A stretch of 60,544 nt of DNA, filler included, from Nemertoderma westbladi (lineage: Eukaryota > Animalia > Xenacoelomorpha): the NCBI GenBank assembly GCA_032718475.1. It is 3 parts of 3 records of this genome, joined end to end, with 100 filler letters (N's around TTAATTAATTAA, not from the genome) between each part and the next. Parts side by side here need not be neighbours in the genome. Positions count along the whole stretch, not along the records: positions 1 to 22,200 come from JAUCBJ010002407.1; 2 more parts are not named here. One strand, given 5' to 3'. Both the position numbers and the translations under genes were made by a program. Shown in pieces: positions 4,860 through 37,126 of the stretch. The number at the start of each line of letters is the position of its first letter. Position 1 is the stretch's first letter. Below the pieces are notes generated by a model. The model had not been told where the DNA came from and did not search any database. It worked only from the letters and a program-made list of their open reading frames with translations.

Positions 4860-6399
4860 AGGCCTAATAAATTAATGTAAAACGTGCAACAATGAATTAT
4901 GCTGACCTGAATGGCAATGGAATAATGGTAACTCGAAGCGGGATGCCTTACTGCCTTTATACAGTATTTTCTTAGTGAAAAAATATCGTGCAAAAGTTGT
5001 GCTGTTAAATAAAAATACATAAAATTAAAATTGTAACATTTAATTTGAATTGATACAATCTAAATTAAATTGAAGTTGTTCCAAATGTCGGTACAACCTA
5101 ATGCAACTGTGTACTGGACTGGACTGGCCTATGAAGATCTGATAAAACAAAATAAAACATGTAAAAATAATATAGGCCTAATCCATTCAAACCAGTCAGG
5201 TCGGGATCGCAAGATCTTGCTACCACTATAGCAGTAATGGGGTAAAATCGGTTCCAGTACATGCAAAATGACATTTTTGCAAAATGACATGTCGAAATGT
5301 CATTTTGACAAACATAGATAGCATAACATAGCATATCATAGCTTAACATAGCATGAGTACACCCACTTGGCAATTTTTTGAAGTTCTAAAACCCGTTGAT
5401 TTTCTGACTGTACTGGTATATATTATATATATACCAATTGAGGGAAAGGAGAAGGTTACAGGCAGGCTTTTCTAACCAAAACAATAAACGGCCACTTTAC
5501 CAATTGATGGAAAGGAGCAGGTTTACAGAGGAGACCTATTGTCCATCGGAAACCTGACCGTGGTATCCGAACGTTGCAAAGGTAAGATCGGTGTGAATTC
5601 AACTTACTCATACATCTCTAATGTAGATGTACGGCGATTCTTAAGGTTCAGCGGGTACCGGTATAGGTTTAATAGTCTAATACACTTTAAATTAAGTCAC
5701 AGCAGTTGGGAAACATCAGAAACGTTATTAATTAACAGTCAAAACAATTAACAGGCAAAGGAGTTGCAGCATTGTATATAAACTAATGTTACCGGTACTA
5801 CGAGAGTTAGAAAAAAGTACACAATAATCAATATATTAGGTTACGTATGAACAATGGCAGAATGGGGAGTGTGCACAAATTTTCAATAAAAAAAAGAGTG
5901 GACATTATTCTAGAGGTTAGTAGATTCTGGTTCAGTCAATCCTTTAGTGCCACCAGCCTCCAGCTCACCAGACCAGGGTGGGGTGTTGTGAACTTCAGAG
6001 GTAGGACTTTATAGTACAGTAGTCAGGTAGTAGGCCTAATTATTGAGTGATGACTTGACACTCTGTCAGGCTATTCAAGGATTCAACTATCCCTCCCTCC
6101 CATCTGCCAATCATATACCTGTATACAACTGTATAAAATAATCAACCAACCACAAACCAGTAAACTTTCCCCAGTTGCCAGTACAGTATGCAGTACATTA
6201 CATCATTACAAGTGCAGAGGAGAATTTTGAAGTTGAAGTACAACATTCTGACATTACTACAGTGTTGTTATGTACCACCTGTGTACTACTGTACTACAAC
6301 AACTGTACAACAGTTTACAGTTTTTACACTGGCAGACTGGTACAAGGCGTTTTTATGCAACTGTCAGACCCGTATCCGGAACCTGAAAATCTGTAGAAT

Positions 6400-8500
6400 G
6401 TTGATTATATAGTAGGCTGCTGCAGAAACAGGAACAAGGAAAAGGAAACAGGAAAAGGGCCCCCTGGACTGACAACAAAACCCAGAAGTGCCGAAATGAC
6501 CTATATATAAAGGCGCAGAAAGAGTCCCGACTCAAACAGACTACAGCGGCCAAGAATGCAGTTAAGGCTGCATCTAGGTCCCTGAACAGGCAGTACTCTG
6601 TTAATCTACAGGAGCTAATAAACCAACAGGTTGATGCCATCAATGATGCTGACGACAGCAGGCAATCATCCCAGACATGGAAATCTATCAACTTGCTTAC
6701 TGGGCGGAAAAGCCAACCAACTGACCAACCACCAAGGGTTAAGGCTGAATCACCTGCCGATCGCCTCAATGGTTGGATGGCCCACTTTGAAAAGCTCATC
6801 AATAATGACAGGATATTGCCTGATAACTTTATATTACTGTATAGAAGTAAAAGTGTCTGAGTCTGTACTCCCAGATATTCCCATTGGCGATATCTCCTTT
6901 GCAGAAGTGAAGGCGGCTGCAAAGAGCATTAAGACCAATCGTGCCAGTGGAGTAGATGGTGTTCCCCCTGAGGTCTTTAAAATACCTGAGTGTTTAAAGC
7001 TCATCTATCCCATCATAGTAGACATGTACCGAACAACAAGAGTCCCACAAGAAATGAAAAAAAATAAGTTGGTGCCAGTTCCCAAGAAGGGCAACCTAAC
7101 ATTCTATGGTTCTTTTCGGGGAATCTCATTGATCTCGATTGCTGCAAAGCTATACAATAGAATTCTATTAAATCGCATCAGGGATCCCATTGAGAGACTG
7201 CTCCGTGGAAATCAGAATGGGTTCCGTAAAGGTCGTGGAACCATGGAACCCATTTTGGCACTTAGAAGGATAATTGAAGAGTTATCAAAAAAGAAAGACA
7301 GGCATCTGGCTGTTATCTTTGTTGACTTCTTCAAGGCCTTTAAATCAGTCCCCCGCTCTCGTATGTTCAGCATACTTTCATTATATGGGATTCCTGATGA
7401 AATTATTGCAGCAATCAGATCACTATACGATGGTTCGACAACATTTGTGTCTACTGTTGATGGTGACACAGAACCATTTGAAGTGTTATGGGGCGTCCTC
7501 CAGGGAGACACACTTGCACCATTCTTGTTCATAATTGTGGTTGACTATGTTCTACGCATGTCCTTAGATCATCATAATGATGATGGGGTGATGATAACTC
7601 CACTTAATGGCTCCAGAAGTGGAGGGAAATCCTGCCAAGTACCTAACTGATCTAGACTTTGCTGATGACTTAGGAGTACACTCAGAATCACTAGAGGGAG
7701 CCCAACGGCTCCTCAGCTCATTAGAACATGCTGCTTCTAGTTTTGGTCTTTTTATTAACTCCAGAAAGACCAAAATTTTGACAGGTAACTTTGAAAGTTC
7801 TCAGCAAGTCTCTGATCGGATGAGCATAAGCTCAAAGGATGGTATGCTTGCGCATGTGGACGACTTCTGTTACCTGGGATCATGGATCCGGAAGTCAGGT
7901 GAGGACCTTCGAATACGTAAGGGAAAGGCATGGGCAGCCTTGAATAGGCTTTCCAGGATTTGGAAGTCACCGAAAAATAATCGGAAACTTAAGGTCCGAT
8001 TATTTAGAGCAGCAGTAGTTCCAGTACTCCTCTATGGGAGTCCATGCTGGGCTCTAACTGCTGAGGACACCAAATCTCTGGATGGCACATTCACAAGAAT
8101 GCTACGCCGGGTTCATTGTGTCAAGTACAAATGAACACATCTCCAACCAGACACTATACAGTATAACATTGGAGGTGTCTCATTGGTTCCCCCAAGCTTG
8201 ACACTAGAACAAAATCGCCTCTGCTTTGCAGGACATTGCTTTCGCCGTGAGGACCAGCCAGTGCATAATCTTGTTCTTTGGCAGCCTCATGTTAATTGCA
8301 TATTAATTAACAGCACATATTAATTGTGGACAGCCCATGACTTTCTTGAGACGCATCTTAAAGGACACTGGCCTTGAAGATGCGGATGATCTAGCAAATG
8401 TCATGGGTGATAGGGAGTTGTGGCGGCGCAATTTTGTCGACAAGCCGGCACAGCATTCTTAAAAATGCAGCTGCAATGCAGCATGCCGATACTAGTAGTA
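6400..8500 (+). mobile_element. 5'-truncated, frameshifted non-LTR retrotransposon (RTE/RTEX-like LINE), copy A
   Basis: RT motifs VPVPKKGNL, FRGISL, QNGFRKGR, GVLQGDTLAPFLFIIVVDYVLR, DLDFADDL and FCYLGS across ORFs 6631-7650 and 7607-8134; (TAG)n tail; ~28-bp direct repeat gtatccgg(a/t)acctgaaaatc(t/c)gtagaat at 6372-6399 and 8501-8528 as target-site duplication. Confidence 0.92.
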
Positions 8501-10778: not shown

Positions 10779-11810
10779 CGCCATTGTATCGTTCTGAATA
10801 CATTGAATAGACTCCATCAGTCCATTGTCCATCGCGATCGTTTCATTTTTACGTTTAATTGACTCCGTCGCCTCCTCGGATTAGGAATCCGGCCGGGTTT
10901 CGTAGATTCCGCCATCGTTCAGCAGTTCAGTGTTTTTAATCAAAGCCAAAATTCCGGCACCGGCACCACGATCAACGATTTCGGAAGTAACAGACTCCGT
11001 CAACAACACTCGGGGTTTAAAAAATACAACTATCAGGCAACTAGTAACTGGGCGATCATCTATCTGATAGTTGAAAAAGACTGTCTGACAGTTGGTATCA
11101 GACTATCTGATAGTTAGCGCCCCATGGGTAAATCCTTACCCCATGGGCTGTTACCTCTCTGACTGACAGCGCAACAGCCCCTATACTTTCAGTCCGCCAT
11201 TTGTCCAGACAACAAAGAGCGGATTCTTAGTTTGGAAGTCGATAATTCAAATTGACCGCGCGGATTTTGGCAATCCCCAGTCCGCCAGTCCGCTCTTTAC
11301 ATGCACCCGTGCAGTATTGGAGTGGAGGCTGATAATTCTGAATTTTGATTCTGTCAGTCTGTTATTATATTATATTTCTGTTAAACAGTTAAATGTCAGC
11401 GCCAGCCTGTCCAGCTGTCTACAGTCTGGCTGTCTGGTGACGGTGACTGGTTCTGTCTGGACTGGATGTGCTGTGCGTGTGCATGTGTCTATGGCCTGAT
11501 GGCTGTCTGGGCCGGGAACGTCACAGGCTGACAGGCAATACGACGGCAAGTATTAAACTACCTGACTGACTATGGATTATGGATGGACTACTAATACTGT
11601 TCTGTTGTAGGCCTACCGTCAGACAATCCTAGCGGTAGACTGGCAGACCGGTAAAATAATGTAGGCCTAGGCCTAATCAGCTAATTCTATAATTAGTAAA
11701 TCAGTCCTGCTCCTGCATTCTGAAATACTTTTTCTGTGCTTCGCCAGAACAGCAGAACAGCCTCACACTCACACAGGAATCCTACAGCCTGAATTCTGCC
11801 AGATGTAACT

Positions 11811-12038
11811 ATGAACAGACCAAGCTTGGGACTTGTAGGAGGCGACACTCGAAGTTGGAGGAGGTTAATTTTGGATTCATTGCGGGATCGCAACAACATA
11901 GAAACGGTGCCGTTCCAAGATATCGTTAACAGTCACGCTAAACTTCTCGATTCTGTTGAGTCTTTACGTTTACAAACTATTCAACTCAGTGTAAAAAATG
12001 AGAAATTACGTCAGGAGAACACAGCTCTTGAGATACAG
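11811..12038 (+). CDS. ATG16L1: Autophagy-related protein 16-1, coding exon 1 (ATG5-binding helix)
   Basis: WRRLILDSLRDRNNIETVPFQDIVNSHAKLLDS resembles the ATG16L1 N-terminus; ends at CAG|GTAAGT, phase 0. Confidence 0.88.
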
Positions 12039-12432: not shown

Positions 12433-12585
12433 GGTGGAGGATCTGCTGGCGGGGATATCAAGGCCAACGAGCGGATCACTGGACTCGAAAAGAAATTGTT
12501 TAAGTTGCAGGAAGAGCTTACCGAATTACACAGACGTAAAGGGGAGAACGCCCAACAGGTGGTAGACCTCAGTACCGCTTTACAG
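12433..12585 (+). CDS. ATG16L1: ATG16L1 coding exon 2 (coiled coil)
   Basis: Pyrimidine tract and tttag acceptor; KLQEELTELHRRKGENAQQVVDL is characteristic of ATG16L1; CAG|GTAAGT donor; phase 0/0. Confidence 0.92.
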
Positions 12586-13895: not shown

Positions 13896-14021
13896 ACGCG
13901 GGAGAAACAAAATCAGGCGCACGAAATTAAAATCAATGACTTAGAATCATCTGCGGTTTCGTTAAGATCAGCCAACAAAAGTCTCGAACAGACCATAGTG
14001 GACATGCAACAGGCCAACCAG
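13896..14021 (+). CDS. ATG16L1: ATG16L1 coding exon 3 (coiled coil); downstream exons not found in the window
   Basis: ttttgtttcag acceptor; TREKQNQAHEIKINDLESSAVSLRSANKSLEQTIVDMQQANQ aligns with the ATG16L1 segment ending in ANQ; CAG|GTAAGT donor; phase 0/0. Confidence 0.85.
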
Positions 14022-17000
14022 GTAAGTAAAGTGCCCAGACCATAGTGGACATGCAACAGGCCAACCAGGTAAGTAAAGTGCCACAGACCATAGTGGACAT
14101 GCAACAGGCCAACCAGGTAAGTAAAGTGCCCAGACCATAGTGGACATGCAACAGGCCAACCAGGTAAGTAAAGTGCCCAGACCATAGTGGACATGCAACA
14201 GGCCAAACAGGCAAGTGAAGTCTCGAATAGACCATAGTGGACATGCAACAGGCCAACCAGGTAAGTAAAGTGCCCAGACCATAGTGGACATGCAACAGGC
14301 CAACCAGGTAAGTAAAGTCTCGAACAGACCATAGTGGACATGCAACAGGCCAACCAGGTAAGTAAAGTGCCCAGACCATAGTGGACATGCAACAGGCCAA
14401 CCAGGTAAGTAAAGTGCCACAGACCATAGTGGACATGCAACAGGCCAACCAGGTCAGTAAAGTGCCACAGACCATAGTGGACATGCAACAGGCCAACCAG
14501 GTCAGTAAAGTCTCGAACAGACCATAGTGGACATGCAACAGGCCAACCAGGTAAGTAAAGTGCCCAGACCATAGTGGACATGCAACAGGCCAACCAGGTA
14601 AGTAAAGTGCCACAGACCATAGTGGACATGCAACAGGTCAACCAGGTCAGTAAAGTCTCGAACAGACCATAGTGGACATGCAACAGGCCAACCAGGTCAG
14701 TAAAGTCTCGAACAGACCATAGTGGACATGCAACAGGCCAACCAGGTAAGTAAAGTGCCACAGACCATAGTGGACATGCAACAGGCCAACCAGGTCAGTA
14801 AAGTCTCGAACAGACCATAGTGGACATGCAACAGGCCAACCAGGTAAGTAAAGTGCCCAGACCATAGTGGACATGCAACAGGCCAACCAGGTAAGTAAAG
14901 TGCCCAGACCATAGTGGACATGCAACAGGCCAACCAGGTAAGTAAAGTGCCCTGACTATAGTGGACATGCAACAGGCCAACCAGGTAAGTAAAGTGCCCA
15001 GACCATAGTGGACATGCAACAGGCCAACCAGGTAAGTAAAGTGCCCTGACTATAGTGGACATGCAACAGGCCAACCAGGTCAGTAAAGTGCCACAGACCA
15101 TAGTGGACATGCAACAGGCCAACCAGGTCAGTAAAGTCTCGAACAGACCATAGTGGACATGCAACAGGCCAACCAGATAAGTAAAGTGCCACAGACCATA
15201 GTGGACATGCAACAGGCCAACCAGGTAAGTAAAGTGCCACAGACCATAGTGGACATGCTACAGGTCAACCAGGTAAGTAAAGTGCCACAGACCATAGTGG
15301 ACATGCAACAGGCCAACCAGGTAAGTAAAGTGCCACAGACCATAGTGGACATGCAACAGGCCAAACAGGTAAGTAAAGTGCCCAGACCATAGTGGACATG
15401 CAACAGGCCAACCAGGTCAGTAAAGTCTCGAACAGACCATAGTGGACATGCAACAGGCCAACCAGGTAAGTAAAGTGCCACAGACCATAGTGGACATGCA
15501 ACAGGCCAACCAGGTCAGTAAAGTCTCGAACAGACCATAGTGGACATGCAACAGGCCAACCAGGTAAGTAAAGTGCCCAGACCATAGTGGACATGCAACA
15601 GGCCAACCAGGTAAGTAAAGTGCCCTGACTATAGTGGACATGCAACAGGCCAACCAGGCAAGTAAAGTGCCCAGACCATAGTGGACATGCAACAGGCCAA
15701 CCAGGTCAGTAAAGTCTCGAACAGACCATAGTGGACATGCAACAGGCCAACCAGGTAAGTAAAGTGCCACAGACCATAGTGGACATGCAACAGGCCAACC
15801 AGGTCAGTAAAGTGCCCAGACCATAGTGGACATGCAACAGGTCAACCAGGTAAGTAAAGTGCCACAGACCATAGTGGACATGCAACAGGCCAACCAGGTA
15901 AGTAAAGTCTCGAACAGACCATAGTGGACATGCAACAGGCCAACCAGGTAAGTAAAGTGCCCAGACCATAGTGGACATGCAACAGGCCAACCAGGTAAGT
16001 AAAGTGCCCTGACTATAGTGGACATGCAACAGGCCAACCAGGTAAGTAAAGTCTCGAACAGACCATAGTGGACATGCAACAGGCCAATCAGGTAAGTAAA
16101 GTCTCGAACAGACCATAGTGGACATGCAACAGGCCAACCAGGTAAGTAAAGTCTCGAACAGACCATAGTGGACATGCAACAGGCCAACCAGGTAAGTAAA
16201 GTGCCACAGACCATAGTGGACATGCAACAGGCCAACCAGGTCAGTAAAGTGCCCAGACCATAGTGGACATGCAACAGGTCAACCAGGTAAGTAAAGTGCC
16301 CAGACCATAGTGGACATGCAACAGGCCAACCAGGTAAGTAAAGTGCCCTGACTATAGTGGACATGCAACAGGCCAACCAGGTAAGTAAAGTCTCGAACAG
16401 ACCATAGTGGACATGCAACAGGCCAACCAGGTAAGTAAAGTGCCCAGACCATAGTGGACATGCAACAGGTCAATCAGGTAAGTAAAGTGCCACAGACCAT
16501 AGTGGACATGCAACAGGCCAACCAGGTAAGTAAAGTGCCCAGACCATAGTGGACATGCAACAGGCCAACCAGGTAAGTAAAGTCTCGAACAGACCATAGT
16601 GGACATGCAACAGGCCAACCAGGTAAGTAAAGTGCCGCAGACCATAGTGGACAGGACATGCAACAGGCCAACCAGGTAAGTAAAGTGCCCAGACCATAGT
16701 GGACATGCAACAGGCCAACCAGGTAAGTAAAGTCTCGAACAGACCATAGTGGACATGCAACAGGCCAACCAGGTAAGTAAAGTGCCCTGACTATAGTGGA
16801 CATGCAACAGGCCAACCAGGTCAGTAAAGTCTCGAACAGACCATAGTGGACATGCAACAGGCCAACCAGGTAAGTAAAGTGCCCAGACCATAGTGGACAT
16901 GCAACAGGCCAACCAGGTAAGTAAAGTCTCGAACAGACCATAGTGGGCATGCAACAGGCCAAACAGGCAAGTAAAGTGCCCAGACCATAGTGGACATGCA

Positions 17001-20000
17001 ACAGGCCAACCAGGTAAGTAAAGTGCCCAGACCATAGTGGACATGCAACAGGCCAACCAGGTAAGTAAAGTGCCCTGACTATAGTGGACATGCAACAGGC
17101 CAACCAGGTAAGTAAAGTGCCCAGACCATAGTGGACATGCAACAGGCCAACCAGGTAAGTAAAGTGCCCAGACCATAGTGGACATGCAACAGGCCAACCA
17201 GGTAAGTAAAGTGCCCTGACTATAGTGGACATGCAACAGGCCAACCAGGTAAGTAAAGTGCCCAGACCATAGTGGACATGCAACAGGCCAACCAGGTAAG
17301 TAAAGTCTCGAACAGACCATAGTGGACATGCAACAGGCCAACCAGGTAAGTAAAGTGCCCAGACCATAGTGGACATGCAACAGGCCAACCAGGTAAGTAA
17401 AGTGCCCTGACTATAGTGGACATGCAACAGGTCAACCAGGTAAGTAAAGTGCCACAGACCATAGTGGACATGCAACAGGCCAACCAGGTAAGTAAAGTGC
17501 CCAGACCATAGTGGACATGCAACAGGCCAACCAGGTAAGTAAAGTCTCGAACAGACCATAGTGGACATGCAACAGGCCAACCAGGTAAGTAAAGTGCCAC
17601 AGACCATAGTGGACATGCAACAGGCCAACCAGGTAAGTAAAGTGCCCAGACCATAGTGGACATGCAACAGGCCAACCAGGTAAGTAAAGTGCCCAGACCA
17701 TAGTGGACATGCAACAGGCCAACCAGGTAAGTAAAGTCTCGAACACACCATAGTGGACATGCAACAGGCCAACCAGGTAAGTAAAGTGCCCAGACCATAG
17801 TGGACATGCAACAGGCCAACCAGGTAAGTAAAGTGCCCAGACCATAGTGGACATGCAACAGGTCAACCAGGTAAGTAAAGTGCCCAGACCATAGTGGACA
17901 TGCAACAGGCCAACCAGGTAAGTAAAGTCTCGAATAGACCATAGTGGACATGCAACAGGCCAACCAGGTAAGTAAAGTGCCCAGACCATAGTGGACATGC
18001 AACAGGCCAACCAGGTAAGTAAAGTGCCCAGACCATAGTGGACATGCAACAGGCCAAACAGGCAAGTAAAGTGCCCAGACCATAGTGGACATGCAACAGG
18101 CCAACCAGGTAAGTAAAGTGCCCAGACCATAGTGGACATGCAACAGGCCAACCAGGTAAGTAAAGTGCCACAGACCATAGTGGACATGCAACAGGCCAAC
18201 CAGGTAAGTAAAGTGCCACAGACCATAGTGGACATGCAACAGGCCAACCAGGTAAGTAAAGTGCCCAGACCATAGTGGACATGCAACAGGCCAACCAGGT
18301 AAGTAAAGTGCCACAGACCATAGTGGACATGCAACAGGCCAACCAGGTAAGTAAAGTGCCCAGACCATAGTGGACATGCAACAGGCCAACCAGGTAAGTA
18401 AAGTGCCCAGACCATAGTGGACATGCAACAGGCCAACCAGGTAAGTAAAGTGCCCAGACCATAGTGGACATGCAACAGGCCAACCAGGTAAGTAAAGTGC
18501 CACAGACCATAGTGGACATGCAACAGGCCAACCAGGTCAAGTAAAGTGCCCAGACCATAGTGGACATGCAACAGGCCAACCAGGAAGTAAGTGCCCAGAC
18601 CATAGTGGACATGCAACAGGCCAACCAGGTAAGTAAAGTGCCCAGACCATAGTGGACATGCAACAGGCCAACCAGGTAAGTAAAGTGCCCAGACCATAGT
18701 GGACATGCAACAGGCCAACCAGGTAAGTAAAGTGCCACAGACCATAGTGGACATGCAACAGGCCAAACAGGTCAAGTAAAGTGCCCAGACCATAGTGGAC
18801 ATGCAACAGGCCAACCAGGTAAGTAAAGTGCCACAGACCATAGTGGACATGCAACAGGCCAACCAGGTAAGTAAAGTGCCCAGACCATAGTGGACATGCA
18901 ACAGGCCAACCAGGTAAGTAAAGTGCCCAGACCATAGTGGACATGCAACAGGCCAACCAGGTAAGTAAAGTGCCACAGACCATAGTGGACATGCAACAGG
19001 CCAACCAGGTAAGTAAAGTGCCCAGACCATAGTGGACATGCAACAGGCCAACCAGGTAAGTAAAGTGCCCAGACCATAGTGGACATGCAACAGGCCAACC
19101 AGGTAAGTAAAGTGCCACAGACCATAGTGGACATGCAACAGGCCAACCAGGTAAGTAAAGTGCCACAGACCATAGTGGACATGCAACAGGCCAACCAGGT
19201 AAGTAAAGTGCCACAGACCATAGTGGACATGCAACAGGCCAACCAGGTAAGTAAAGTGCCACAGACCATAGTGGACATGCAACAGGCCAACCAGGTAAGT
19301 AAAGTGCCCAGACCATAGTGGACATGCAACAGGCCAACCAGGTAAGTAAAGTGCCCAGACCATAGTGGACATGCAACAGGCCAACCAGGTAAGTAAAGTG
19401 CCACAGACCATAGTGGACATGCAACAGGCCAACCAGGTAAGTAAAGTGCCACAGACCATAGTGGACATGCAACAGGCCAACCAGGTAAGTAAAGTGCCCA
19501 GACCATAGTGGACATGCAACAGGCCAACCAGGTAAGTAAAGTCTCGAACAGACCATAGTGGACATGCAACAGGCCAACCAGGTAAGTAAAGTGCCCAGAC
19601 CATAGTGGACATGCAACAGGCCAACCAGGTCAGTAAAGTGCTCGAACAGACCATAGTGGACATGCAACAGGCCAACCAGGTAAGTAAAGTGCCCAGACCA
19701 TAGTGGACATGCAACAGGTCAACCAGGTAAGTAAAGTGCCCTGACTATAGTGGACATGCAACAGGCCAACCAGGTAAGTAAAGTCTCGAACAGACCATAG
19801 TGGACATGCAACAGGCCAACCAGGTAAGTAAAGTGCCCAGACCATAGTGGACATGCAACAGGCCAACCAGGTAAGTAAAGTGCCCAGACCATAGTGGACA
19901 TGCAACAGGCCAACCAGGTAAGTAAAGTGCCACAGACCATAGTGGACATGCAACAGGCCAACCAGGTAAGTAAAGTGCCACAGACCATAGTGGACATGCA

Positions 20001-20970
20001 ACAGGCCAACCAGGTAAGTAAAGTGCCCAGACCATAGTGGACATGCAACAGGCCAACCAGGTAAGTAAAGTGCCACAGACCATAGTGGACATGCAACAGG
20101 CCAACCAGGTAAGTAAAGTGCCACAGACCATAGTGGACATGCAACAGGCCAACCAGGTAAGTAAAGTGCCCAGACCATAGTGGACATGCAACAGGCCAAC
20201 CAGGTAAGTAAAGTGCCCAGACCATAGTGGACATGCAACAGGCCAACCAGGTAAGTAAAGTGCCCAGACCATAGTGGACATGCAACAGGCCAACCAGGTA
20301 AGTAAAGTGCCCAGACCATAGTGGACATGCAACAGGCCAACCAGGTAAGTAAAGTGCCCAGACCATAGTGGACATGCAACAGGCCAACCAGGTAAGTAAA
20401 GTGCCCAGACCATAGTGGACATGCAACAGGCCAACCAGGTAAGTAAAGTGCCCAGACCATAGTGGACATGCAACAGGCCAACCAGGTAAGTAAAGTGCCC
20501 AGACCATAGTGGACATGCAACAGGCCAACCAGGTAAGTAAAGTGCCCAGACCATAGTGGACATGCAACAGGCCAACCAGGTAAGTAAAGTGCCCAGACCA
20601 TAGTGGACATGCAACAGGCCAACCAGGTAAGTAAAGTGCCCAGACCATAGTGGACATGCAACAGGCCAACCAGGTAAGTAAAGTGCCACAGACCATAGTG
20701 GACATGCAACAGGCCAACCAGGTAAGTAAAGTGCCCAGACCATAGTGGACATGCAACAGGCCAACCAGGTAAGTAAAGTGCCCAGACCATAGTGGACATG
20801 CAACAGGCCAACCAGGTAAGTAAAGTGCCCAGACCATAGTGGACATGCAACAGGCCAACCAGGTAAGTAAAGTGCCCAGACCATAGTGGACATGCAACAG
20901 GCCAACCAGGTAAGTAAAGTCTCGAACAGACCATAGTGGACATGCAACAGGCCAACCAGGTAAGTAAAGT
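13978..20970 (+). repeat. Minisatellite of ~145 copies (47/48/50-bp units) derived from the ATG16L1 exon 3 / intron 3 junction
   Basis: Unit is ACCATAGTGGACATGCAACAGGCCAACCAG + gtaagtaaagt + one of gcccag, gccacag, ctcgaacag or gccctg. Copy number estimated from length divided by unit size. Confidence 0.98.
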
Positions 20971-21682
20971 GGCATTTGGTGAATATTAATAATATAGGTT
21001 CAATTTGAGTAAAATTATTTTTTGTAGAATTGCTGTGGGGCCGGACGCCATAAACATAAAATAATTGGAACGTAATTCAATTGCTTTAATTATAATTAAT
21101 TATAATTATCATTATAAGATAATATAATTTAATTGCAATCAATAAAATTAAACACGTTCGTGAGGCCTTCGCGCAGCACGAGAATGGTTAACCTGAGAAT
21201 GATAAGCTGTATTACCGGTACCGACTGACAAACTGTCTGATTTTTGACCAATCTTCGGATTCTTTCTTAACTTTGACGGACTACATACGTACCCAGTTTG
21301 GTTTAATTTCAAGGAATGACCGAGTTATTAGCGCTCAAAAGTTAGACAACGACAACAAACACCTCGTTAGTGGTACCCCTCTGCTAAGGTTTCGCCAATT
21401 TCGTGGCTAGCCCCACAAGTATACTGTCATACATGCCATGCAATATAATATAGGGCCCAATTATTTTGTTCATTAGGCATTAGTGGACGAGCACCAAACA
21501 CTACACCTGCTCTGCACCACAGCTGAACAAGAATTAAAAAAAGTGAAAATTGAAAACTTCGATCTGGTTAATCGTTGGGTGGAACAAAAACGAAAGTAAG
21601 TTTTTTGTGATAAATATTTTGTTATTTAGATAATAAATTGTTCTCAGGAACATATATTCAAATAAATATGATTTATAAATAA

Positions 21683-22200: not shown

Positions 22201-22300
22201 NNNNNNNNNNNNNNNNNNNNNNNNNNNNNNNNNNNNNNNNNNNNTTAATTAATTAANNNNNNNNNNNNNNNNNNNNNNNNNNNNNNNNNNNNNNNNNNNN
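22201..22300. other. Assembly gap with artificial TTAATTAATTAA linker
   Basis: 100-bp block of Ns with a central 12-mer that gives stops in all frames; same design at 51417-51516. Confidence 0.97.
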
Positions 22301-23090
22301 GCACTATTTTAAAACAATATTTTAACCGATAATTTTTCGATTACAATTAACCATAGGCCTACATATGTATGTTTATCACATACGTACAGTAAAATTTATT
22401 TAACAAGGTACAATAAAATACGAACACGTAGTTTAAAACTTATCACATATTATGTATAGTAAAATTAACTCGGAGTATCAGTACGTAACTACAGTTTAAA
22501 AAGTAGTATCACATACATACAATGAAATTTATTTAACAAGGTACAATAAAATTTATTTAACAAGGTACAATAAAATACGAACACATAGTTTAAAACTTAT
22601 CACATATGTACAGTAAAATTAACTCGGATTAACATATGCATACATACGTATGTGATACTACTTTTTAAACTGTAGCTACGTAACAGATATATTTTAAACT
22701 GTAAATTTTATTTTATTTCAAGTTTAATGTATGTATATACGGTACACGTGATTTATTGTAAACTACTGTACAGAGTTAGACCATTTATGATACCTAGGCA
22801 AGACAATTTTATTATATAATTTCAAACATGTATTATACCATCCATTCATTTACATAATTTACATAAAACAATGTAAAATAAATTACCGGTAAATTGTGAT
22901 TTATATATATTATTTCAGTATTGTGCAGTATGTATTTTTTATATGGGAAAAAATTCAATCAATCAATCAATCAATCAAACATCGCGGTAACCTTTAGTCT
23001 CTTCACAGTAGGGTCTTCATTACTTCACTGGCTACACATAGTGAACTATCTACATCATGCCACGTACTTGTTTAGTATGCAAGTCAAAAG

Positions 23091-24451
23091 TACGGTGGCT
23101 GAATGTGGCCAATTTAATTAATTTTAAAATGGGAAATATAAAAGGAAATTAATGAAATATAATTCCTTAAAACAGGAATTAATCAAATATAATTCAACCC
23201 AAAACAGGAATTAATCAAATATAATTCAACCCAAAACAGGAATTAATCAAATATAATTCAACCCAAAACAGGAATTAATCAAATATAATTCAACCCAAAA
23301 CAGGAATTAATCAAATATAATTCAACCCAAAACAGGAATTAATCAAATATAATTCAACCCAAAACAGGAATTAATCAAATATAATTCAACCCAAAACAGA
23401 AATTAATCAAATATAATTCAACCAGAAACAGAATTTAATCAAATATAATTCAACCCAAAACAGGAATTAATCAAATATAATTCAACCACAAACAGAATTT
23501 AATCAAATATAATTCAACCCAAAACAGGAATTAATCAAATATAATTCAAACATTTTGGAGGGAAATTTAAAATACTGTCTCAGTGCAGTGCAGCAAATTG
23601 TCGTTTCCTTTTCAGTCTATCAGTGCAGTACTGCAGTAACGGTTGCCCGTACCTCTGTAAGCTTAGCTGCTTAGTTCTGTGGTTAGTTGTTAATCTTTTA
23701 ATCACTACTGACTACCAACAGACCGATACGACCTGACTACGGGGAAATCCGGCAGCTTTACCTTACCAATCTTCAGAAAGACCGGTAATTCCGTAGGATT
23801 AGTTAGTTCAGTAGTTGTATATAGAACTGTACTGCAGGTGTACTACTAGTATCTGCATGCTGCATTGCAGCTGCATTTTTAAGAATGCTGTGCCGGCTTG
23901 TCGACAAAATTGCGCCGCCACAACTCCCTATCACCCATGACATCATGACATTTTGTACTACCATCATTACGTAGATCGGTAGTCAGTAGTGCTGTAGTGA
24001 TTAAAAGATTAACAACTAACCACAGAACTAAGCAGCTAAGCTTACAGAGGTACGGGCAACCGTTACTGCAGTACTGCACTGATAGACTGAAAAGGAAACG
24101 ACAATTTGCTGCACTGCACTGAGACAGTATTTTAAATTTCCCTCCAAAATGTTTGACTTATATTTGATTAATTCCTGTTTTGGGTTGAATTATATTTGAT
24201 TAAATTCTGTTTGTGGTTGAATTATATTTGATTAATTCCTGTTTTGGGTTGAATTATATTTGATTAAATTCTGTTTCTGGTTGAATTATATTTGATTAAT
24301 TTCTGTTTTGGGTTGAATTATATTTGATTAATTCCTGTTTTGGGTTGAATTATATTTGATTAATTCCTGTTTTAAGGAATTATATTTCATTAATTTCCTT
24401 TTATATTTCCCATTTTAAAATTAATTAAATTGGCCACATTCAGCCACCGTA
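23091..24451. mobile_element. Foldback non-autonomous DNA transposon, IS3EU-like termini
   Basis: Long inverted arms starting TACGGTGGCTGAATGTGGCC and ending GGCCACATTCAGCCACCGTA; 6-bp TSD CAAAAG at 23085-23090 and 24452-24457; 32-bp tandem repeats in both arms (~12 left, ~7 right). Confidence 0.88.
23843..23943 (-). mobile_element. 3'-end fragment of the RTE-like LINE in the centre of the foldback element
   Basis: Matches the LINE 3' end (VMGDRELWRRNFVDKPAQHS*, gcagctgcaatgcagcatg, TAG tail). Confidence 0.85.
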
Positions 24452-26866
24452 CAAAAGACCATTTGCACCGGTTTCCTATTGATGTTGCTGTTTGCAATGA
24501 ATGGAAACAAGCGATTCGTCAGGGGCTGAATACGCCAGGTAAGGATTTTATTATTATATCATGCATGAAATGTTCTACGACATGTTATCTATTTGGTACT
24601 ACTATAGTATGTGTGTAGCCATGGTACAGCAAATTTATAAAATTTGTATGTCTTTTTATTTGGTTTTATTGCATTTTATTATGTTCTAGAACATTTGTGA
24701 TTGTTCTAGAACCTTAGTAGACATTTTTTCTACCATCTAGTAGTATTTTTTTCACTGGCTAGTATTTTTGAAAATAAAGAAAATAATATTTTATTTAGTG
24801 TTTTTTAATATTGGAAAACATTCTAGAATCAATGATTTCACATTTTTTTATAATTTCAAAAAATACTAGCTAGTTAAAAAAAACGGCTATCCGTATGCCA
24901 CATGCGTATGCGTATGTTCCTTAATCATTGTTACTATGGCTTCAATATTAGTTATAGAACAACATATAAAAGTTATTTAACTATTCTAGAATAAAATAAA
25001 AAATAAAATGATCTAGAACATATAGCTATAGTTATTTTTTCGATTTTTTCGATTTTTTGATTCGAGTTCAGTAGTAATTAGTTTACATTGCAATGTGAAA
25101 TATAAATACTGGCACGGGCGGAACACTAGCCGTATAAATTATTTTAGATTAATATTTTTGTTAGGTCGAGAATTCGATTACGATAAAGATCGAATTTGTA
25201 AAGTTCACTTCGAGCCGAAGGATTTTATGATGAACAGAAATTTGCAGTTTCGAAGTTCCAATCTCAAAAAGGAATCAATTCCATCAATATTTACATTGGC
25301 TGTGCAATTACCATCCCCACTACGCAAGTCACCAACTAAACGAAAAGTTGATCCCACACTATACAACCTACTCAAAAATAGAAAATTAGTTGAAGACAAA
25401 TTGGAGTGGCAGTTGGGAAATATAAAGAAATGGATTGAAGACGAGGATGTTTTTAAGAATAGAGAGGTACATGCGTGTAAGTGTGATGTTGAAAGTGAAG
25501 ATGGAATTATGATTTATGAAATTTCCCCCGAAAATCTAAAACTGAATTACTTCCTTAAGATCTCAACGACGTACTTTATTGTTTCTCAAAATACCTCTAA
25601 AATACCCCTCGTTAATTTTAGCTATTTACCACGTAACAAAAGTGGGTATAATAAAGTTCAGAAGAAAAGCGTTTTGCTTAGGCTAATGAATGAGGTCAAG
25701 TTTCATTCATTGCCTAATTTTGACTCAGATTTCATGAAATTTCTAGACGAGTACCGCAATTATAAAAAGATAGGAATATACCCCAAGAATATCATTAGAA
25801 AGTGTCTTATTCTACGTTATAAGAGCAGCAGGAATGGATATAAAGAGCTCTTGAAGCTGATGCCGAACCTACCCAGCATTTCATTCTTTGAAAAGTTGAC
25901 AAGAGGTGATGTAAAAGTTTATACACTTCTAAAGAGCATTGGTATGGATCAGAATGTTGTAATATACGCGGATGAAATTTACTTACAGAGAAAATCAATA
26001 TTTAGTGCAGGAGGTATTATTGAATCACCAAAGACCCTGCTGGATATTATGGTAAGAGGTCTAAGTGGGGGAAATGGAATAATTGTCAAGTCAGTGCCAT
26101 GTTACGAGACATTAACTGGAGACATGTTGATAAAAGAATTCAAGGAAGTTGTGAAACATTTAAAAGAGGCCGAGTTTCAGCCACGAGTGTTTGTTACTGA
26201 TGGCCTTTCAGTTAATGTCAATGCTTACACAAAGATTATATATGAACCAGAGCTTTGTGATATAATTCCGTTGTTTGATTATAATCACCTCATGAAGAAT
26301 ACACGAAATAACTTATTTAACACCGACATATTTTATCCTCCTGAATTTAAGTGGAGTTATATGAATGACGTATTTCAAATAGGAGCAAATGCTAAAGTGT
26401 CGATGTCTGATGTTCGTATGGTGTATCAGATGGATACAGAGAGAATTAATTGTGATTCTTCAGTCAATCTGCGAAAAGCCCACAAGCTGGTGGTCGCTTC
26501 CTTGTAAGTCTGCGGGAAGCCACTAACTCAAACAAGATAATTCAAATCAAAGAAGCTCTACAATTTATTTAAATATATTTAATATATATATATATTAATA
26601 GATTTTACCTCGTTGCTATAGTTACCTGTGCTAGAAATAAAAATAAATAGGATAAAAATAAATAGGGTAGTAGATGGAAAAAATAATTAATTCATGGCAA
26701 AACCTAGAAATTTTATGTTTGCCCGGTTTCCATGGAAACGCTCCGGTCAAATTTGCTTAAATTTTTTTTCTGAGGTTTCTATGGCATATACTACCATTTA
26801 TTGAAAAAAATTTCGGGGCCGAAAAAATAACACTAATGCGGTTCCGTGTATATTTAGTATTCCATG

Positions 26867-27665
26867 GTTTAGTTTAGTTTAGTTTAGTTTAGTTTAGTTT
26901 AGTTTAGTTTAGTTAGTTAGTTTAGTTTAGTTTAGTTTAGTTTAGTTTAGTTTAGTTTAGTTTAGTTTAGTTTAGTTTAGTTTAGTTTAGTTTAGTTTAG
27001 TTTAGTTTAGTTTAGTTTAGTTTAGTTTAGTTTAGTTTAGTTTAGTTTAGTTTAGTTTAGTTTAGTTTAGTTTAGTTTAGTTTAGTTTAGTTTAGTTTAG
27101 TTTAGTTTAGTTTAGTTTAGTTTAGTTTAGTTTAGTTTAGTTTAGTTTAGTTTAGTTTAGTTTAGTTTAGTTTAGTTTAGTTTAGTTTAGTTTAGTTTAG
27201 TTTAGTTTAGTTTAGTTTAGTTTAGTTTAGTTTAGTTTAGTTTAGTTTAGTTTAGTTTAGTTTAGTTTAGTTTAGTTTAGTTTAGTTTAGTTTAGTTTAG
27301 TTTAGTTTAGTTTAGTTTAGTTTAGTTTAGTTTAGTTTAGTTTAGTTTAGTTTAGTTTAGTTTAGTTTAGTTTAGTTTAGTTTAGTTTAGTTTAGTTTAG
27401 TTTAGTTTAGTTTAGTTTAGTTTAGTTTAGTTTAGTTTAGTTTAGTTTAGTTTAGTTTAGTTTAGTTTAGTTTAGTTTAGTTTAGTTTAGTTTAGTTTAG
27501 TTTAGTTTAGTTTAGTTTAGTTTAGTTTAGTTTAGTTTAGTTTAGTTTAGTTTAGTTTAGTTTAGTTTAGTTTAGTTTAGTTTAGTTTAGTTTAGTTTAG
27601 TTTAGTTTAGTTTAGTTTAGTTTAGTTTAGTTTAGTTTAGTTTAGATTTAGTTTAGTTTAGTTTA
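26867..27665. repeat. (TTTAG)n microsatellite, ~160 copies
   Basis: Near-perfect pentamer run. Confidence 0.99.
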
Positions 27666-28792
27666 ATTTAATTACGCCAGTATCAATAAAAATATATCTC
27701 AAAAGTCAAACATACAAACACAAATGACAGAAATAAAGATAATCCATGATTAGTATGTAGCAATGTACGTAATGTACGTACGTACTGTAAGTAATGTACA
27801 GTAATATATACACGTTCTGTTATACAGTCTGCATTGCACCAAGATAAATAATATTCAGGTATTATAAACATTTTGTTTTTCGCAATGGCTGGCAAAAAAG
27901 TTACGCAGTGTTGCGTTTTAAGGCGGGATTAAAATATAAATAAAAAATAGATTAATTAATTAAAGATAAAATTCGATAAAAAAAATAAATATTAAGTTAT
28001 ACCATAAATTCGTAAGTATACGTTATATATACGTTATATATACGTATATATATACGTTATACCATAACTAACAAGCAATATGTGCCTCGAACATGGGAGA
28101 AAACAAGTTACAAATTACATAGGCCTAGTTTAAAAATAATGCATAATACGATAATACGCGGTGTAGTGTCCACATAAGGGGCCTATTATGACAACGTTAT
28201 GATAAAATGCATCAGTCAATTAAGATTGCAGGTAACATATGACGTATATGTAATCATGAAATTTACAGTATATTTCTAAATTCATTGCAGTATTCGAAGA
28301 TTCTGCCAAGTTACGCAATTGCATTTTAAAGCCGGGAAAAAAATTTTTAAATAAACTTATTATATGTAATAATGCTTAAATATTATTTATAAATATCATA
28401 GATGTATAAAAATCATAGGTGTGGAAATAAAATTCGATAAAAATTATTTATTATTATTATTATTTAGTATTTTGTGTTGGTCTACCCATACGGTGCTGCA
28501 TGGCATAGGCAATATATTAGCCTAGCTTTACAATTAAAAAATTACAATACCTGCAATACATTTCAGTATTTGGCCATAGTGTTTTTGTTCAGTGTAACTG
28601 TATAGTAGTAGTAGTAGTATACTGCAGTACTGGTATAAAGATTACGGATACAGTACAGCAGTAGCAAGTAGGCCTACCTGAGCTGCTGAGGATAGTACAT
28701 ACTGACATACGGACTGCAGTACTACCACCACCACGACCAGACGACCCCGGTCAGACGGTACGGCACTGTAACATATTGAAAATTACAATACA

Positions 28793-29872
28793 ATGTTTAA
28801 TGAATCGCCCGCTACCGAATATAAACAATCCGGGTTTACCATATCCCCGGAAATATTTACGAATATTTGTTTGGATAATTGTTCTTTCGTGAGGTGTTTT
28901 ATCGAGGATTACATCCGCGCAAACACCTCGTTCCTCGAGGACTATATAACCGCTAATTGCACCGCCGGGGAAATAACCGACTGGCTTCACAAGGTTGTGA
29001 GTAAAATTGAAACAACACAAAGCGATGTAATATATGATCAAGCGATCGTAGATACCGACAATCTGACGTCCAATGAGTGGCAGTTCATTGGAGAATACGA
29101 TAAGTATACAGACGAGACGCTACAACAAACTCCCGCAACCAATGACGTCACCGGTTGTGGAGTTTTACAACCGTTATTTCAACCATTACACTCCAAAACT
29201 GGCCATAAACGTTCGCTAAGACCTCTGAATTCCTACAAACTTAAACGCGACTCCAGAAACCCTCCGTTGTCTGCCGCTAGGAGGGGCAGCAGACAAATTA
29301 AACGCCCTAAACATTTCAACCAATATATCGACTCCAGTTTCAGCTCTATATCTCCGTTAGTTGACATCGACGACGACAACGAATCCCTCGCGTTAACGGC
29401 GAATGAAACCCCCAACGAATTAGCCCCCGGTATCTCGGCCTATACGAGCGCCATTAGCGCCGCTTACCGCGACACAACAGCTTATCATTTAATCGAAGAT
29501 AATAATGTCTTAGAACCCGTTGAATCGGTCAACCAATCGGAGACGATAAATTCGGAAGTTGTTGATTCTCCGACTATCGACTCTCCTCCGGTCGCCGATG
29601 CTTCCCGCGTTACCATGGTAACTATCGGGTCCGACCATTTGGTTCCCGCGAACGCCAAGAGTTTCGTATGGAAACACTTTACTATCCTACCAGACGAAGC
29701 AGATCGGGTTAAGTGTCTGTCCTGCGGGAAGAAATTCACGTACGGCGCGGGCATTGGCTCCAGACCGACAACCTCCCTGTTGCGTCATCTTAGACTGCGG
29801 CACCGGGCCCAGATTGTGGGCGAGAAGTGTCGGATTGGGCGACAACCCGAGGGGGACATCGAACGGTCGTAG
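28793..29872 (+). CDS. Intronless protein with a C-terminal BED zinc finger, paralog 1 (359 aa)
   Basis: KSFVWKHF...VKCLSCG...TTSLLRHLRLRH is a BED finger signature; no transposase catalytic domain follows. Confidence 0.8.
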   Translation: MFNESPATEYKQSGFTISPEIFTNICLDNCSFVRCFIEDYIRANTSFLEDYITANCTAGEITDWLHKVVSKIETTQSDVIYDQAIVDTDNLTSNEWQFIGEYDKYTDETLQQTPATNDVTGCGVLQPLFQPLHSKTGHKRSLRPLNSYKLKRDSRNPPLSAARRGSRQIKRPKHFNQYIDSSFSSISPLVDIDDDNESLALTANETPNELAPGISAYTSAISAAYRDTTAYHLIEDNNVLEPVESVNQSETINSEVVDSPTIDSPPVADASRVTMVTIGSDHLVPANAKSFVWKHFTILPDEADRVKCLSCGKKFTYGAGIGSRPTTSLLRHLRLRHRAQIVGEKCRIGRQPEGDIERS

Positions 29873-34900: not shown

Positions 34901-36736
34901 GGGACCTACTAACAGCTAATACCCACACACCCGTGGGACCTACTAACAGCTAATACCCACACACCCGTGGGACCTACTAACAACAGCTAATACCCACACA
35001 CCCGTGGGACCTACTAACAACAGCTAATACCCCCACACCCGTGGGACATACTAACAGCTAATACCCACACACCCATGGGACCAACTAACAGCTAATACCC
35101 ACACACCCGTGGGACCTACTAACAGCTAATACCCACACACCCGTGGGACCTACTAACAGCTAATACCCACACACCCGTGGGACCTACTAACAACAGCTAA
35201 TACCCACATACCCGTGGGACCTACTAACAGCTAATACCCACACACCCGTGGGACCTACTAACAGCTAATACCCACACACCCGTGGGACCAATACTAACAG
35301 CTAATACCCACACACCCGTGGGACCTACTAACAGCTAATACCCACACACCCGTGGGACCTACTAACAGCTAATACCCACACACCCGCGGGACCTACTAAC
35401 AGCTAATACCCCCACACCCATGGGACCTACTAACAGCTAATACCCACACACCCGTGGGACCTACTAACAGCTAATACCCACACACCCGTGGGACCTACTA
35501 ACAACAGCTAATACCCACATACCCGTGGGACCTACTAACAGCTAATACCCACACACCCGTGGGACCTACTAACAGCTAATACCCACACACCCGTGGGACC
35601 AATACTAACAGCTAATACCCACACACCCGTGGGACCTACTAACAACAGCTAATACCCACATACCCGTGGGACCTACTAACAGCTAATACCCACACACCCG
35701 TGGGACCTACTAACAGCTAATACCCACACACCCGTGGGACCAATACTAACAGCTAATACCCACACACCCGTGGGACCTACTAACAACATCTAATACCCAC
35801 ATACCCGTGGGACCTACTAACAGCTAATACCCACACACCCGTGGGACCAATACTAACAGCTAATACCCACACACCCGTGGGACCAATACTAACAGCTAAT
35901 ACCCACACACCCGTGGGACCTACTAACAGCTAATACCCACACACCCGTGGGACCTACTAACACCTAATACCCCCACAGCCGTGGGACCAATACTAACAGC
36001 TAATACCCACACACCCGTGGGACCTACTAACAGCTAATACCCACACACCCGTGGGACCAATACTAACAGCTAATACCCACACACCCATGGGACCTACTAA
36101 CAGCTAATACCCACACACCCGTGGGACCTACTAACAACAGCTAATACCCACATACCCGTGGGACCTACTAACAGCTAATACCCACACACCCGTGGGACCT
36201 ACTAACAGCTAATACCCACACACCCGTGGGACCAATACTAACAGCTAATACCCACACACCCGTGGGACCTACTAACAACATCTAATACCCACATACCCGT
36301 GGGACCTACTAACAGCTAATACCCACACACCCGTGGGACCAATACTAACAGCTAATACCCACACACCCGTGGGACCAATACTAACAGCTAATACCCACAC
36401 ACCCGTGGGACCTACTAACAGCTAATACCCACACACCCGTGGGACCTACTAACACCTAATACCCCCACAGCCGTGGGACCAATACTAACAGCTAATACCC
36501 ACACACCCGTGGGACCTACTAACAGCTAATACCCACACACCCGTGGGACCAATACTAACAGCTAATACCCACACACCCATGGGACCTACTAACAGCTAAT
36601 ACCCACACACCCGTGGGACCTACTAACAGCTAATACCCACACACCCGTGGGACCAATACTAACAGCTAATACCCACACACCCATGGGACCTACTAACAGC
36701 TAATACCCACACACCCGTGGGACCTACTAACAGCTA
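31917..36736. repeat. Minisatellite of ~135-140 copies (34/36/37-bp units)
   Basis: Unit ACCCACACACCCGTGGGACC(AA)TACTAAC(AAC)AGCTAAT. Confidence 0.98.
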
Positions 36737-37045: not shown

Positions 37046-37126
37046 TATGTTGTATTTGTTTGTAATTATTTTGTGTCGGAGTTTCATTCAAATTCAATTA
37101 ATTTAGTTCAAAACTGGAAAATTACA

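What the first reader, a model, noticed from the sequence alone, without database searches (positions are those of the whole stretch)
13896..20970. ATG16L1 exon-3 splice junction amplified ~145 times: an array of potential in-frame 30-nt microexons
Seen: each unit holds the last 30 coding nt of exon 3 (exactly 10 codons, TIVDMQQANQ, phase 0). In most units it is preceded by CAG and followed by a consensus donor GTAAGT. The module is almost invariant, while variation concentrates in the 17/18/20-nt spacer. Three different spacer types all keep GT...AG ends, and a fourth (gccctg-actat) lacks the AG. The 18-nt spacer is also open in frame (VSKVPQ). Known: this segment lies in the ATG16L1 dimerising coiled coil. 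Inference: the gene has ~145 competing 5' splice sites. The array could be a silent intronic U1 decoy field, a source of truncated isoforms, or a cassette that varies coiled-coil length in 10-aa steps by splicing any donor to a downstream CAG. Against this, the units lack a polypyrimidine tract or obvious branch point, and 17-20-nt introns are below normal animal size.
Basis: partly seen in the sequence, partly recalled or inferred. Interest (0 to 1): 0.88.

Follow-up and report, generated by a model that had tools for sequence, protein, structure and literature searches.

The report
Splice-donor minisatellite in ATG16 intron
A piece of about 48 bases covering the end of an exon and its splice signal is repeated 146 times inside the next intron of an animal autophagy gene (ATG16), but the assembled RNA skips the whole array and keeps one copy, so it is most likely an ordinary, silent repeat of a kind already described in human and lancelet genes.

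Summary
The array is real: 146 copies (13989-20971) of the last 30 coding bases of ATG16 exon 3 plus its donor. DNA contigs from two studies hold array units at 5-24 times single-copy depth. The microexon reading is not supported. Spliced contigs from two studies join exon 3 (base 14021) directly to exon 4 (21477), keeping one module. The 'acceptor' CAG is the Gln codon of exon 3, copied along. The 50-bp unit is an exact duplication of the old exon/intron junction across a 5-base microhomology. Unit AGs lack the T-rich tract of this gene's real acceptors. Any later donor gives a stop at codon 177. The coiled-coil segment has the same length in 62 of 63 homologues (one +7). Spacer variants hit the splice signals rather than sparing them, and three other minisatellites in the window vary similarly. 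It is a new, large member of a known kind: junction-spanning minisatellites ('mirages'; human F7 and ABCA7 VNTRs). This scan has noted the same kind on other DNA (14 notes, at least 11 genomes). Depth hints at about four-fold length variation between samples. Rare isoforms and stepwise (recursive) removal remain untested.

The parts
11811..12038 (+). ATG16 coding exon 1 (76 codons; transcribed leader reaches upstream of 11700)
   Evidence: Pfam ATG16 profile 2-51, E 8.9e-05; GT..AG joint to exon 2 in X4 and X5 contigs
12433..12585 (+). ATG16 exon 2 (51 codons)
   Evidence: Pfam ATG16 72-112, E 1.8e-09; 89 ATG16 homologues; joints
13896..14021 (+). ATG16 exon 3 (42 codons), ends with the single expressed module 13992-14021
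   Evidence: Fills Pfam gap 113-154; covered by spliced contigs; base 14021 is contig position 639 and base 21477 is 640 in X4
14022..14027 (+). Authentic 5' splice site of intron 3 (first of the repeated donors)
   Evidence: Loose end after 14022 is exon 4 sequence in X4 and X5; the base upstream of the single module is unique exon 3
13989..20971 (+). Junction-spanning minisatellite, 146 copies of 47/48/50-bp units (exon end + donor + spacer)
   Evidence: TRF; unit parsing; unit contigs in DNA runs X1, X2, X3
13978..13982 (+). 5-base microhomology shared with intron positions +7 to +11; likely breakpoint of the 50-bp founder duplication
   Evidence: 50-bp unit matches a simple duplication with 0 mismatches; single-copy DNA contigs of X1 and X2 stop at 14007, 30 bases past this point
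20960..21476 (+). Unique 517-nt tail of intron 3 with the real T-rich acceptor; likely the pre-array intron
   Evidence: Joint 'skips 517, GT..AG' in X4 and X5; pyrimidine fraction 0.71
21477..21595 (+). ATG16 exon 4 (119 nt), aligns to the human segment in 6SUR, 6Y09/6ZAY and 5NPV/5NPW
   Evidence: Pfam 156-192, E 1.9e-08; PDB hits; X4 contig leaves at 21595 to an exon not in the window

Best explanation
This is an intronic minisatellite that likely arose by slipped duplication across the exon 3 donor of ATG16 and then expanded; the assembled mRNA uses the first donor and drops all 145 extra copies, so the array is likely silent. Shown: the unit structure; the exact match of the 50-bp unit to a duplication of the old junction over a 5-base microhomology; exon 3 joined to exon 4 with one module in contigs of two studies. 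Inferred: a second, 47/48-bp unit type arose at the same junction (1 mismatch from a simple duplication); unequal exchange or slippage built and mixed the array, as in the other kilobase minisatellites of this window; the donor nearest the exon 3 acceptor wins, as shown experimentally for human F7; rare use of later donors would give a stop at codon 177 and would probably be removed by nonsense-mediated decay; copy number likely varies between individuals.
For: Spliced contigs: X4 (study P3; 1364 nt, depth 1605) and X5 (study P1; 364 nt, depth 52) place 14021 and 21477 at adjacent positions, 639/640 and 305/306. The sequence upstream of the one module is unique exon 3. Origin model: 0 mismatches for the 50-bp unit, 1 each for the 48- and 47-bp units. 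Unit AG contexts have a pyrimidine fraction of 0.29-0.35 and 2-3 competing AGs at -20..-4, against 0.71-0.82 and none for the three real acceptors; the three main units hold no YTRAY. Homologue spacing is 94 residues in 62 of 63 and 101 in one; 65 of 65 by a motif check, 24 lacked the second motif. Arrays fill 24% of the window; per-base divergence is 0.026 here against 0.026, 0.039 and 0.034 in three unrelated arrays. Precedents: F7, ABCA7, amphioxus mirages.
Against: Only assembled contigs were available and these drop rare variants, so minor isoforms are not excluded. X4 and X5 are labelled 'DNA?' by the tool; I call them RNA because they skip GT..AG introns that DNA runs X1 and X2 of the same species cover without joints. 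The donors here are a perfect CAG|GTAAGT; in F7 minigenes perfect downstream sites did compete with a weaker first site, although here the first site is equally perfect. Donor positions +1..+3 carry 5 of 19 distinct variants (nominal p=0.005, about 0.08 after allowing for the post hoc window), which could mean the decoys are not fully neutral. In ABCA7, array length affects skipping of the next exon, so 'silent' may not hold quantitatively.
Confidence: 0.85

Rival explanations
1. Length-dependent splicing modifier: the array makes no new protein, but its length (likely polymorphic) tunes ATG16 output by leaking transcripts to later donors or to exon 4 skipping, both of which shift the frame and would feed nonsense-mediated decay.
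For: ABCA7 precedent: retention of one repeat unit was seen, the two frameshift isoforms were at 14 and 2 percent, and exon 19 skipping rose with length. Later donors 2-6 all give a stop at codon 177. Depth of the 48-bp-unit contig over single-copy depth is about 18-24 in X2 and about 5 in X1, against about 32 copies in the window, which hints at length variation. Mild excess of donor-damaging variants.
Against: The dominant contig is clean in two studies. In F7, changing the number of units did not change splicing. Units 2-4, nearest the real donor, keep intact donors. Depth is a rough proxy and may reflect library bias.
Confidence: 0.08
2. Recursive (stepwise) removal: every unit ends in CAG|GTAAGT, an acceptor-donor junction, so splicing from the first donor to any such AG would rebuild exon 3 followed by a donor. 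The 7-kb array could be removed in steps and leave the same mRNA.
For: The motif is in the sequence 123 times. The final product would be indistinguishable from what the contigs show. The ten AG-less units carry a CTGAC, a branch-like motif, about 30 bases before the next CAG|GT (and the sequence).
Against: No pyrimidine tract before these AGs (pyrimidine fraction 0.41, T fraction 0.06). The motif is simply what the exon end looked like before copying. A 7.5-kb intron does not need recursive splicing, which is described for very long introns (review passage).
Confidence: 0.03
3. Microexon cassette: downstream CAG-module-GT units are spliced in, lengthening the coiled coil in 10-residue steps.
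For: 133 of 146 modules are preceded by CAG and 124 followed by GTAAGT; the module is phase 0. The module-to-module junction is absent from the DNA, so it is testable.
Against: Contigs hold one module. The CAG is the exon's Gln codon. No pyrimidine tract or branch motif in the main units, and competing AGs lie just upstream. Adjacent spacers are 15-22 nt; introns under about 30 nt are reported in animals only from myxozoans and a dicyemid (abstract), while this gene's introns are 394, 1310 and 7455 nt. Ten residues break the heptad; homologues show 0 or +7 only. Module variants: 4 non-synonymous, 2 synonymous, 1 frameshift.
Confidence: 0.02
4. Assembly expansion: a short repeat was blown up by the assembler.
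For: Sample S1 (X1, X3) shows far fewer units than the window. No read spanning the array was available.
Against: 28 distinct unit sequences in a polar arrangement. X2 contigs hold the 48-bp, AG-less and 50-bp unit types at depths 479, 123.5 and 143.8; the first two stand at 3.9:1 against about 3.4:1 in the window, and at about half to three quarters of its copy number.
Confidence: 0.02

Closest known systems
'Mirage' minisatellites of amphioxus (Adh3, globins BflGb6/BflGb9, TnC, PGBD5); PMC3087553 and PMC3902484, passages read; Adh3 and TnC primary papers not read
   Same: [quoted passage not shown] Adh3 units are 10-72 bp.
   Different: 146 copies against 3-6 in BflGb6; two or three unit types from one junction are interleaved; the module is a whole number of codons; a different animal lineage (no close relative in the protein collection, best ARMT1 hit 45%).
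Human F7 intron 7 37-bp VNTR; PMC1557585, parts 1, 3 and 4 of 6 read. The same introduction names 6-16, CBS, LAMIN B2 and PDGF as further cases (primary papers not read)
   Same: First unit spans the exon/intron border, identical donors repeat down the intron, and only the most upstream one is used.
   Different: F7 has 5-9 units with 4 exonic bases and a donor of consensus value 74; here 146 units with 33-44 exonic bases and a perfect-consensus donor. First-donor use here rests on contigs, not minigenes.
Human ABCA7 intron 18 25-bp VNTR; PMC5954066, passages read
   Same: Each unit starts with the exon's donor; very long alleles (12 to about 427 units, up to 10.7 kb) exceed this array; minor use of the second donor gives a frameshift.
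   Different: ABCA7 units contain no coding module; length effects on exon skipping and expression are measured there and untested here.

Membership tests
Junction-spanning minisatellite ('mirage' / F7-type VNTR) | Head-to-tail tandem repeat of minisatellite unit size | tested here: met
   Period 47, 146 copies, 94% matches; units 45-52 nt
Junction-spanning minisatellite ('mirage' / F7-type VNTR) | First unit spans a real exon-intron boundary | tested here: met
   Exon 3 ends at 14021 in spliced contigs; first module is 13992-14021
Junction-spanning minisatellite ('mirage' / F7-type VNTR) | Splice signal reiterated in many, not all, units | tested here: met
   124 of 146 keep GTAAGT
Junction-spanning minisatellite ('mirage' / F7-type VNTR) | Normal mRNA made from the authentic (first) site | tested here: met
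   Dominant contigs of X4 and X5, two studies; minor forms not visible in contigs
Junction-spanning minisatellite ('mirage' / F7-type VNTR) | Copy number varies between alleles or individuals | tested here: inconclusive
   Unit-contig depth about 4-fold lower in S1 than in S2 relative to single-copy depth; depth is a rough proxy
Alternatively spliced microexon array | Each short exon has its own functional acceptor (pyrimidine tract, branch point) | tested here: not met
   Pyrimidine fraction 0.29-0.35, competing AGs, no YTRAY in the main units
Alternatively spliced microexon array | Inclusion seen in mRNA | tested here: inconclusive
   Dominant contigs skip all copies; rare inclusion cannot be seen in contigs
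Alternatively spliced microexon array | Coding constraint on the short exons | tested here: inconclusive
   4 non-synonymous, 2 synonymous, 1 frameshift variant; 16 of 90 possible changes are synonymous; too few events for power
Recursive splice sites | AG|GT motif preceded by a pyrimidine tract | tested here: not met
   Motif present 123 times but T fraction 0.06 upstream; the tract requirement is recalled knowledge
Recursive splice sites | Splicing intermediates or lariats at the site | not testable with these tools
   No raw or nascent RNA reads were listed
ATG16/ATG16L1 | ATG16 coiled-coil domain (PF08614) | tested here: met
   Exons 2 and 4 pass the curated cut-off alone; homologues and PDB chains are ATG16
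ATG16/ATG16L1 | C-terminal WD40 propeller of animal ATG16L1 | not tested
   Exon 5 onwards was not found in the window

The most novel reading that the evidence does not exclude
A length-polymorphic field of more than 120 perfect-consensus donors, each also an AG|GT junction, acts as a quantitative dial on a core autophagy gene: longer alleles leak more transcripts into later donors, exon 4 skipping or stepwise removal, so ATG16 dose differs between individuals while the protein stays the same. It would also be an extreme natural test of first-donor selection outside chordates.
Probability: 0.1. Interest if true: 0.55.

Novelty: new member of a known kind. Interest (0 to 1): 0.2.

Why it matters
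As it stands it extends a known repeat class to another animal lineage and to a core autophagy gene. It shows that the main transcript is spliced correctly past about 120 perfect-consensus decoy donors, which makes it a convenient natural substrate for testing first-donor selection. It would matter more if allele length changed ATG16 expression, as in ABCA7. For annotation it is a warning: the repeated CAG-module-GT pattern looks like a microexon cassette but is only the copied exon end.

Tried and rejected
No whole genome is held, so genome-wide frequency of such arrays and the missing ATG16 exons could not be checked. No RNA holder was listed as such; X4 and X5 were recognised as spliced only on laying. 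In X4 and X5 no contig fitted two places of either stretch and no depth lay on the spacer-only bins; contigs drop rare variants, so this is not used as evidence. Low DNA depth over exon 4 (4.8 and 6.6) and none at 20983-21120 is a dip that the tool says is no finding. Exon 3 alone found no protein (3 candidates, none at E<=1), so this organism's own ATG16 could not be checked for extra modules. A 19-base module motif gave 6 metagenome matches, all single and with chance-level flanks (5-11 of 25-30 bases): unrelated. No sister-species locus was obtained. RNA folding of the first units is unremarkable (z=0.68): no structure masks the decoys. Selection against decoy donors: donor-variant units lie more 5' than the rest (p=0.0002), but so do module-variant units (p=0.009), and the two do not differ clearly (p=0.075; units are not independent): not accepted. 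Retrocopy as the source of the joined form: rejected because X1, from the same sample as X5, covers the introns and shows no such joints. A short, WD40-less ATG16 ending at the stop just after exon 4: rejected for the main transcript, which splices out at 21595. Intron gain by duplication: rejected because a unique 517-nt intron tail with its own acceptor follows the array. Literature: (ATG16, minisatellite, VNTR, microexon, tandem array; any two terms; 15 of 1,019 listed) showed no listed paper with ATG16; (9 of 10 listed) showed none on recursive splicing through a minisatellite. These are limited searches, not proof of absence. No supplements were read.
Full report
Observation. The array is as described. 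TRF reports period 47, 146.0 copies and 94% matches at 13989-20971. Parsing on an invariant anchor gives 146 modules; the 145 complete units are 78 of 47 nt, 38 of 48, 26 of 50 and one each of 45, 51 and 52. 122 of 146 modules equal the last ten codons of exon 3 and 124 of 146 are followed by GTAAGT. The triplet before the module is CAG in 133, CTG in 10, TAG in 2 and CAC in 1.

Gene. Four coding exons lie at 11811-12038, 12433-12585, 13896-14021 and 21477-21595. Pfam ATG16 matches exons 1, 2 and 4 at profile 2-51, 72-112 and 156-192. Exon 3 has no hit alone, but its 42 residues fill positions 113-154 exactly with one module. Exon 2 retrieves 89 ATG16 proteins from 148 candidates. Exon 4 aligns to the human coiled-coil chains in 6SUR, 6Y09/6ZAY and 5NPV/5NPW. 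The organism is an animal-like eukaryote with no close relative in the protein collection (best ARMT1 hit 45% identity); I did not place it further.

What the RNA shows. Six runs were listed, none on record as RNA. Five were laid, on the two flanks of the array only. X4 (study P3) and X5 (study P1) have contigs that skip the 394-nt and 1310-nt GT..AG introns, which DNA runs X1 and X2 cover without joints, so I treat them as RNA. X1 comes from the same sample as X5, which argues against a retrocopy. In X4 one 1364-nt contig (depth 1605) runs through exons 1-4; in X5 a 364-nt contig (depth 52) covers the end of exon 1 and exons 2-4 in part. Base 14021 and base 21477 fall on adjacent contig positions, 639/640 in X4 and 305/306 in X5. 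The sequence upstream of the single module is unique exon 3. So the main mRNA uses the first donor and holds one module. Contigs drop rare variants, so minor isoforms are not excluded.

Is the array real? The single-copy DNA contigs of X1 and X2 both stop at 14007, 30 bases past the point where 50-bp units begin to share sequence with exon 3. X2 has contigs for the 48-bp, AG-less and 50-bp unit types at depths 479, 123.5 and 143.8, against single-copy depths of 19.9-26.5. That is about 18-24 and 5-6 copies of the first two types, against about 32 and 9 in the window. X1 gives about 5 copies of the 48-bp type. X3, from the same sample as X1, has depth 189.8 for it although its interspersed repeats are mostly deeper than those of X2. 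An assembly blow-up is therefore unlikely, and length may differ about four-fold between samples. The tool warns that contig depth is not copy number, and X2 may or may not be the source of the window, so this is a hint only.

Origin. Rebuilding the locus without the array (exon 3 end plus the unique intron tail), the 50-bp unit is a simple duplication with no mismatch, starting at a 5-base microhomology shared by exon 13978-13982 and the intron start. The 48- and 47-bp units are each one mismatch from a simple duplication. The CAG before each module is thus the Gln codon that precedes it in exon 3, and the GT..AG ends of the spacers are inherited, not separately evolved. A 517-nt unique tail with a T-rich acceptor follows the array, so the intron is older than the array. 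The window is rich in minisatellites: seven arrays fill 14,450 nt, 24% of it. Three of them, analysed the same way, have the same or higher divergence (0.026, 0.039, 0.034 against 0.026) and the same uneven spread of variants along the unit; the quietest 63% of the unit holds 0.33, 0.27 and 0.15 of variants against 0.16 here. The 3' part of the array is more homogeneous (6 distinct units per 29 against 12-14), a polarity that I recall as usual for minisatellites.

Against the cassette. The three real acceptors have pyrimidine fractions of 0.71-0.82 at -20..-4 and no AG there; the unit AGs have 0.29-0.35 and two or three competing AGs, and the three main units hold no YTRAY. Adjacent spacers are 15-22 nt. 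The abstract of PMC13644364 reports animal introns under about 30 nt only in myxozoans and a dicyemid, and this gene's introns are 394, 1310 and 7455 nt. Joins that skip a unit would make introns of about 64 nt or more, so size alone does not exclude them; the acceptor context does most of the work. The first spacer is 17 nt, so donors 2-6 all give a stop at codon 177, and later donors contain the same stop. Among 63 of 89 homologues that span both anchors, 62 have the same 94-residue spacing and one has 101, one heptad more; ten residues would break the heptad. Minor variants number 7 in the module and 12 in the spacer (p=0.02), but 8 of the 12 fall in donor positions +1 to +11 and two remove the AG in 11 units. 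The module variants are 4 non-synonymous, 2 synonymous and 1 frameshift, too few to test but no sign of coding constraint.

Results that cut the other way. The donor is the perfect consensus. In F7 minigenes perfect downstream sites took 70-90% of splicing from a weaker first site; here first and later sites are equal, a case not covered in the parts that I read. Five of 19 distinct variants sit at donor +1..+3 (nominal p=0.005, about 0.08 after correction), a weak hint that decoys are selected against. Each unit end is also an AG|GT junction (123 copies), so stepwise removal would be invisible in mRNA, though no pyrimidine tract precedes it.

Mechanism. Shown: unit anatomy, founder duplication fit, first-donor use in the dominant transcript. 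Inferred: expansion by slippage or unequal exchange; choice of the donor nearest the exon 3 acceptor, as established for F7; decay of rare later-donor transcripts by NMD (recalled general knowledge); length polymorphism.

Known relatives. PMC1557585 (parts 1, 3, 4 of 6 read) describes the F7 37-bp VNTR whose first unit spans the exon 7 border, lists 6-16, CBS, LAMIN B2 and PDGF as similar, and shows first-site use whatever the unit number. PMC5954066 (passages) describes the ABCA7 VNTR, 12 to about 427 donor-bearing units, with minor second-donor use and length-dependent exon skipping. Those notes are unchecked AI notes and are not used as support. All testable defining features of the class are met except length polymorphism, which is only hinted.

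Verdict. Real, large and tidy, but a new member of a known kind. Interest 0.2. The boldest reading left open, a length-dependent dial on ATG16 dose, I put at about 0.1.

Noticed in passing
window 21595 onwards: The X4 contig continues for about 600 nt after exon 4, but the start of exon 5 is not found in the window; the rest of ATG16 lies in the gap at 22201-22300 or elsewhere, so the scaffold may be broken or misjoined here.
   Followed up: partly
window 22201-22300 and 51417-51516: Both assembly gaps are 44 N, a 12-base linker with stops in all frames, and 44 N.
   Followed up: no
window 3555-4871 (-) and 41432-42649 (-): ARMT1-like and ZNF622-like (C2H2 zf-C2H2_2/jaz; name recalled) genes are single uninterrupted ORFs of 438 and 405 codons, whereas I recall vertebrate orthologues as multi-exon; possible intron loss or retrocopies. 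ARMT1 best hit is 45% identical.
   Followed up: partly
window 31917-36736, 46307-47189, 26867-27670: Further long arrays: 34 bp x 138, 34 bp x 26, and GTTTA x 161. The first ends at a CAG|GTAAGT-like motif near 36739; whether it borders an exon was not checked.
   Followed up: partly
window about 23090-24452: A 32-bp array occurs twice in opposite orientation (23147-23549 and 24153-24395) with longer inverted flanks, like a foldback element.
   Followed up: no
window 28772-29872 and 37001-38212; 25032-26507: Two near-identical BED-finger ORFs flank the 34-bp array, and a 491-codon ORF has a weak THAP hit (E 0.0017); probably DNA-transposon derived.
   Followed up: no
window 6405-8460 and 57100-60100: Fragments of a non-LTR retrotransposon (RVT_1 hit), broken by frameshifts and stops.
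   Followed up: no
array units 20, 22, 34, 42, 49, 58, 64, 67, 71, 120: The ten AG-less units carry two linked changes that create CTGAC, the only branch-point-like motif in the array; probably chance.
   Followed up: partly
window 11745-11763: X1, X2 and X4 all differ from the window in the ATG16 leader (8 bases left out, one substitution), so the window is another allele or has a local error.
   Followed up: no
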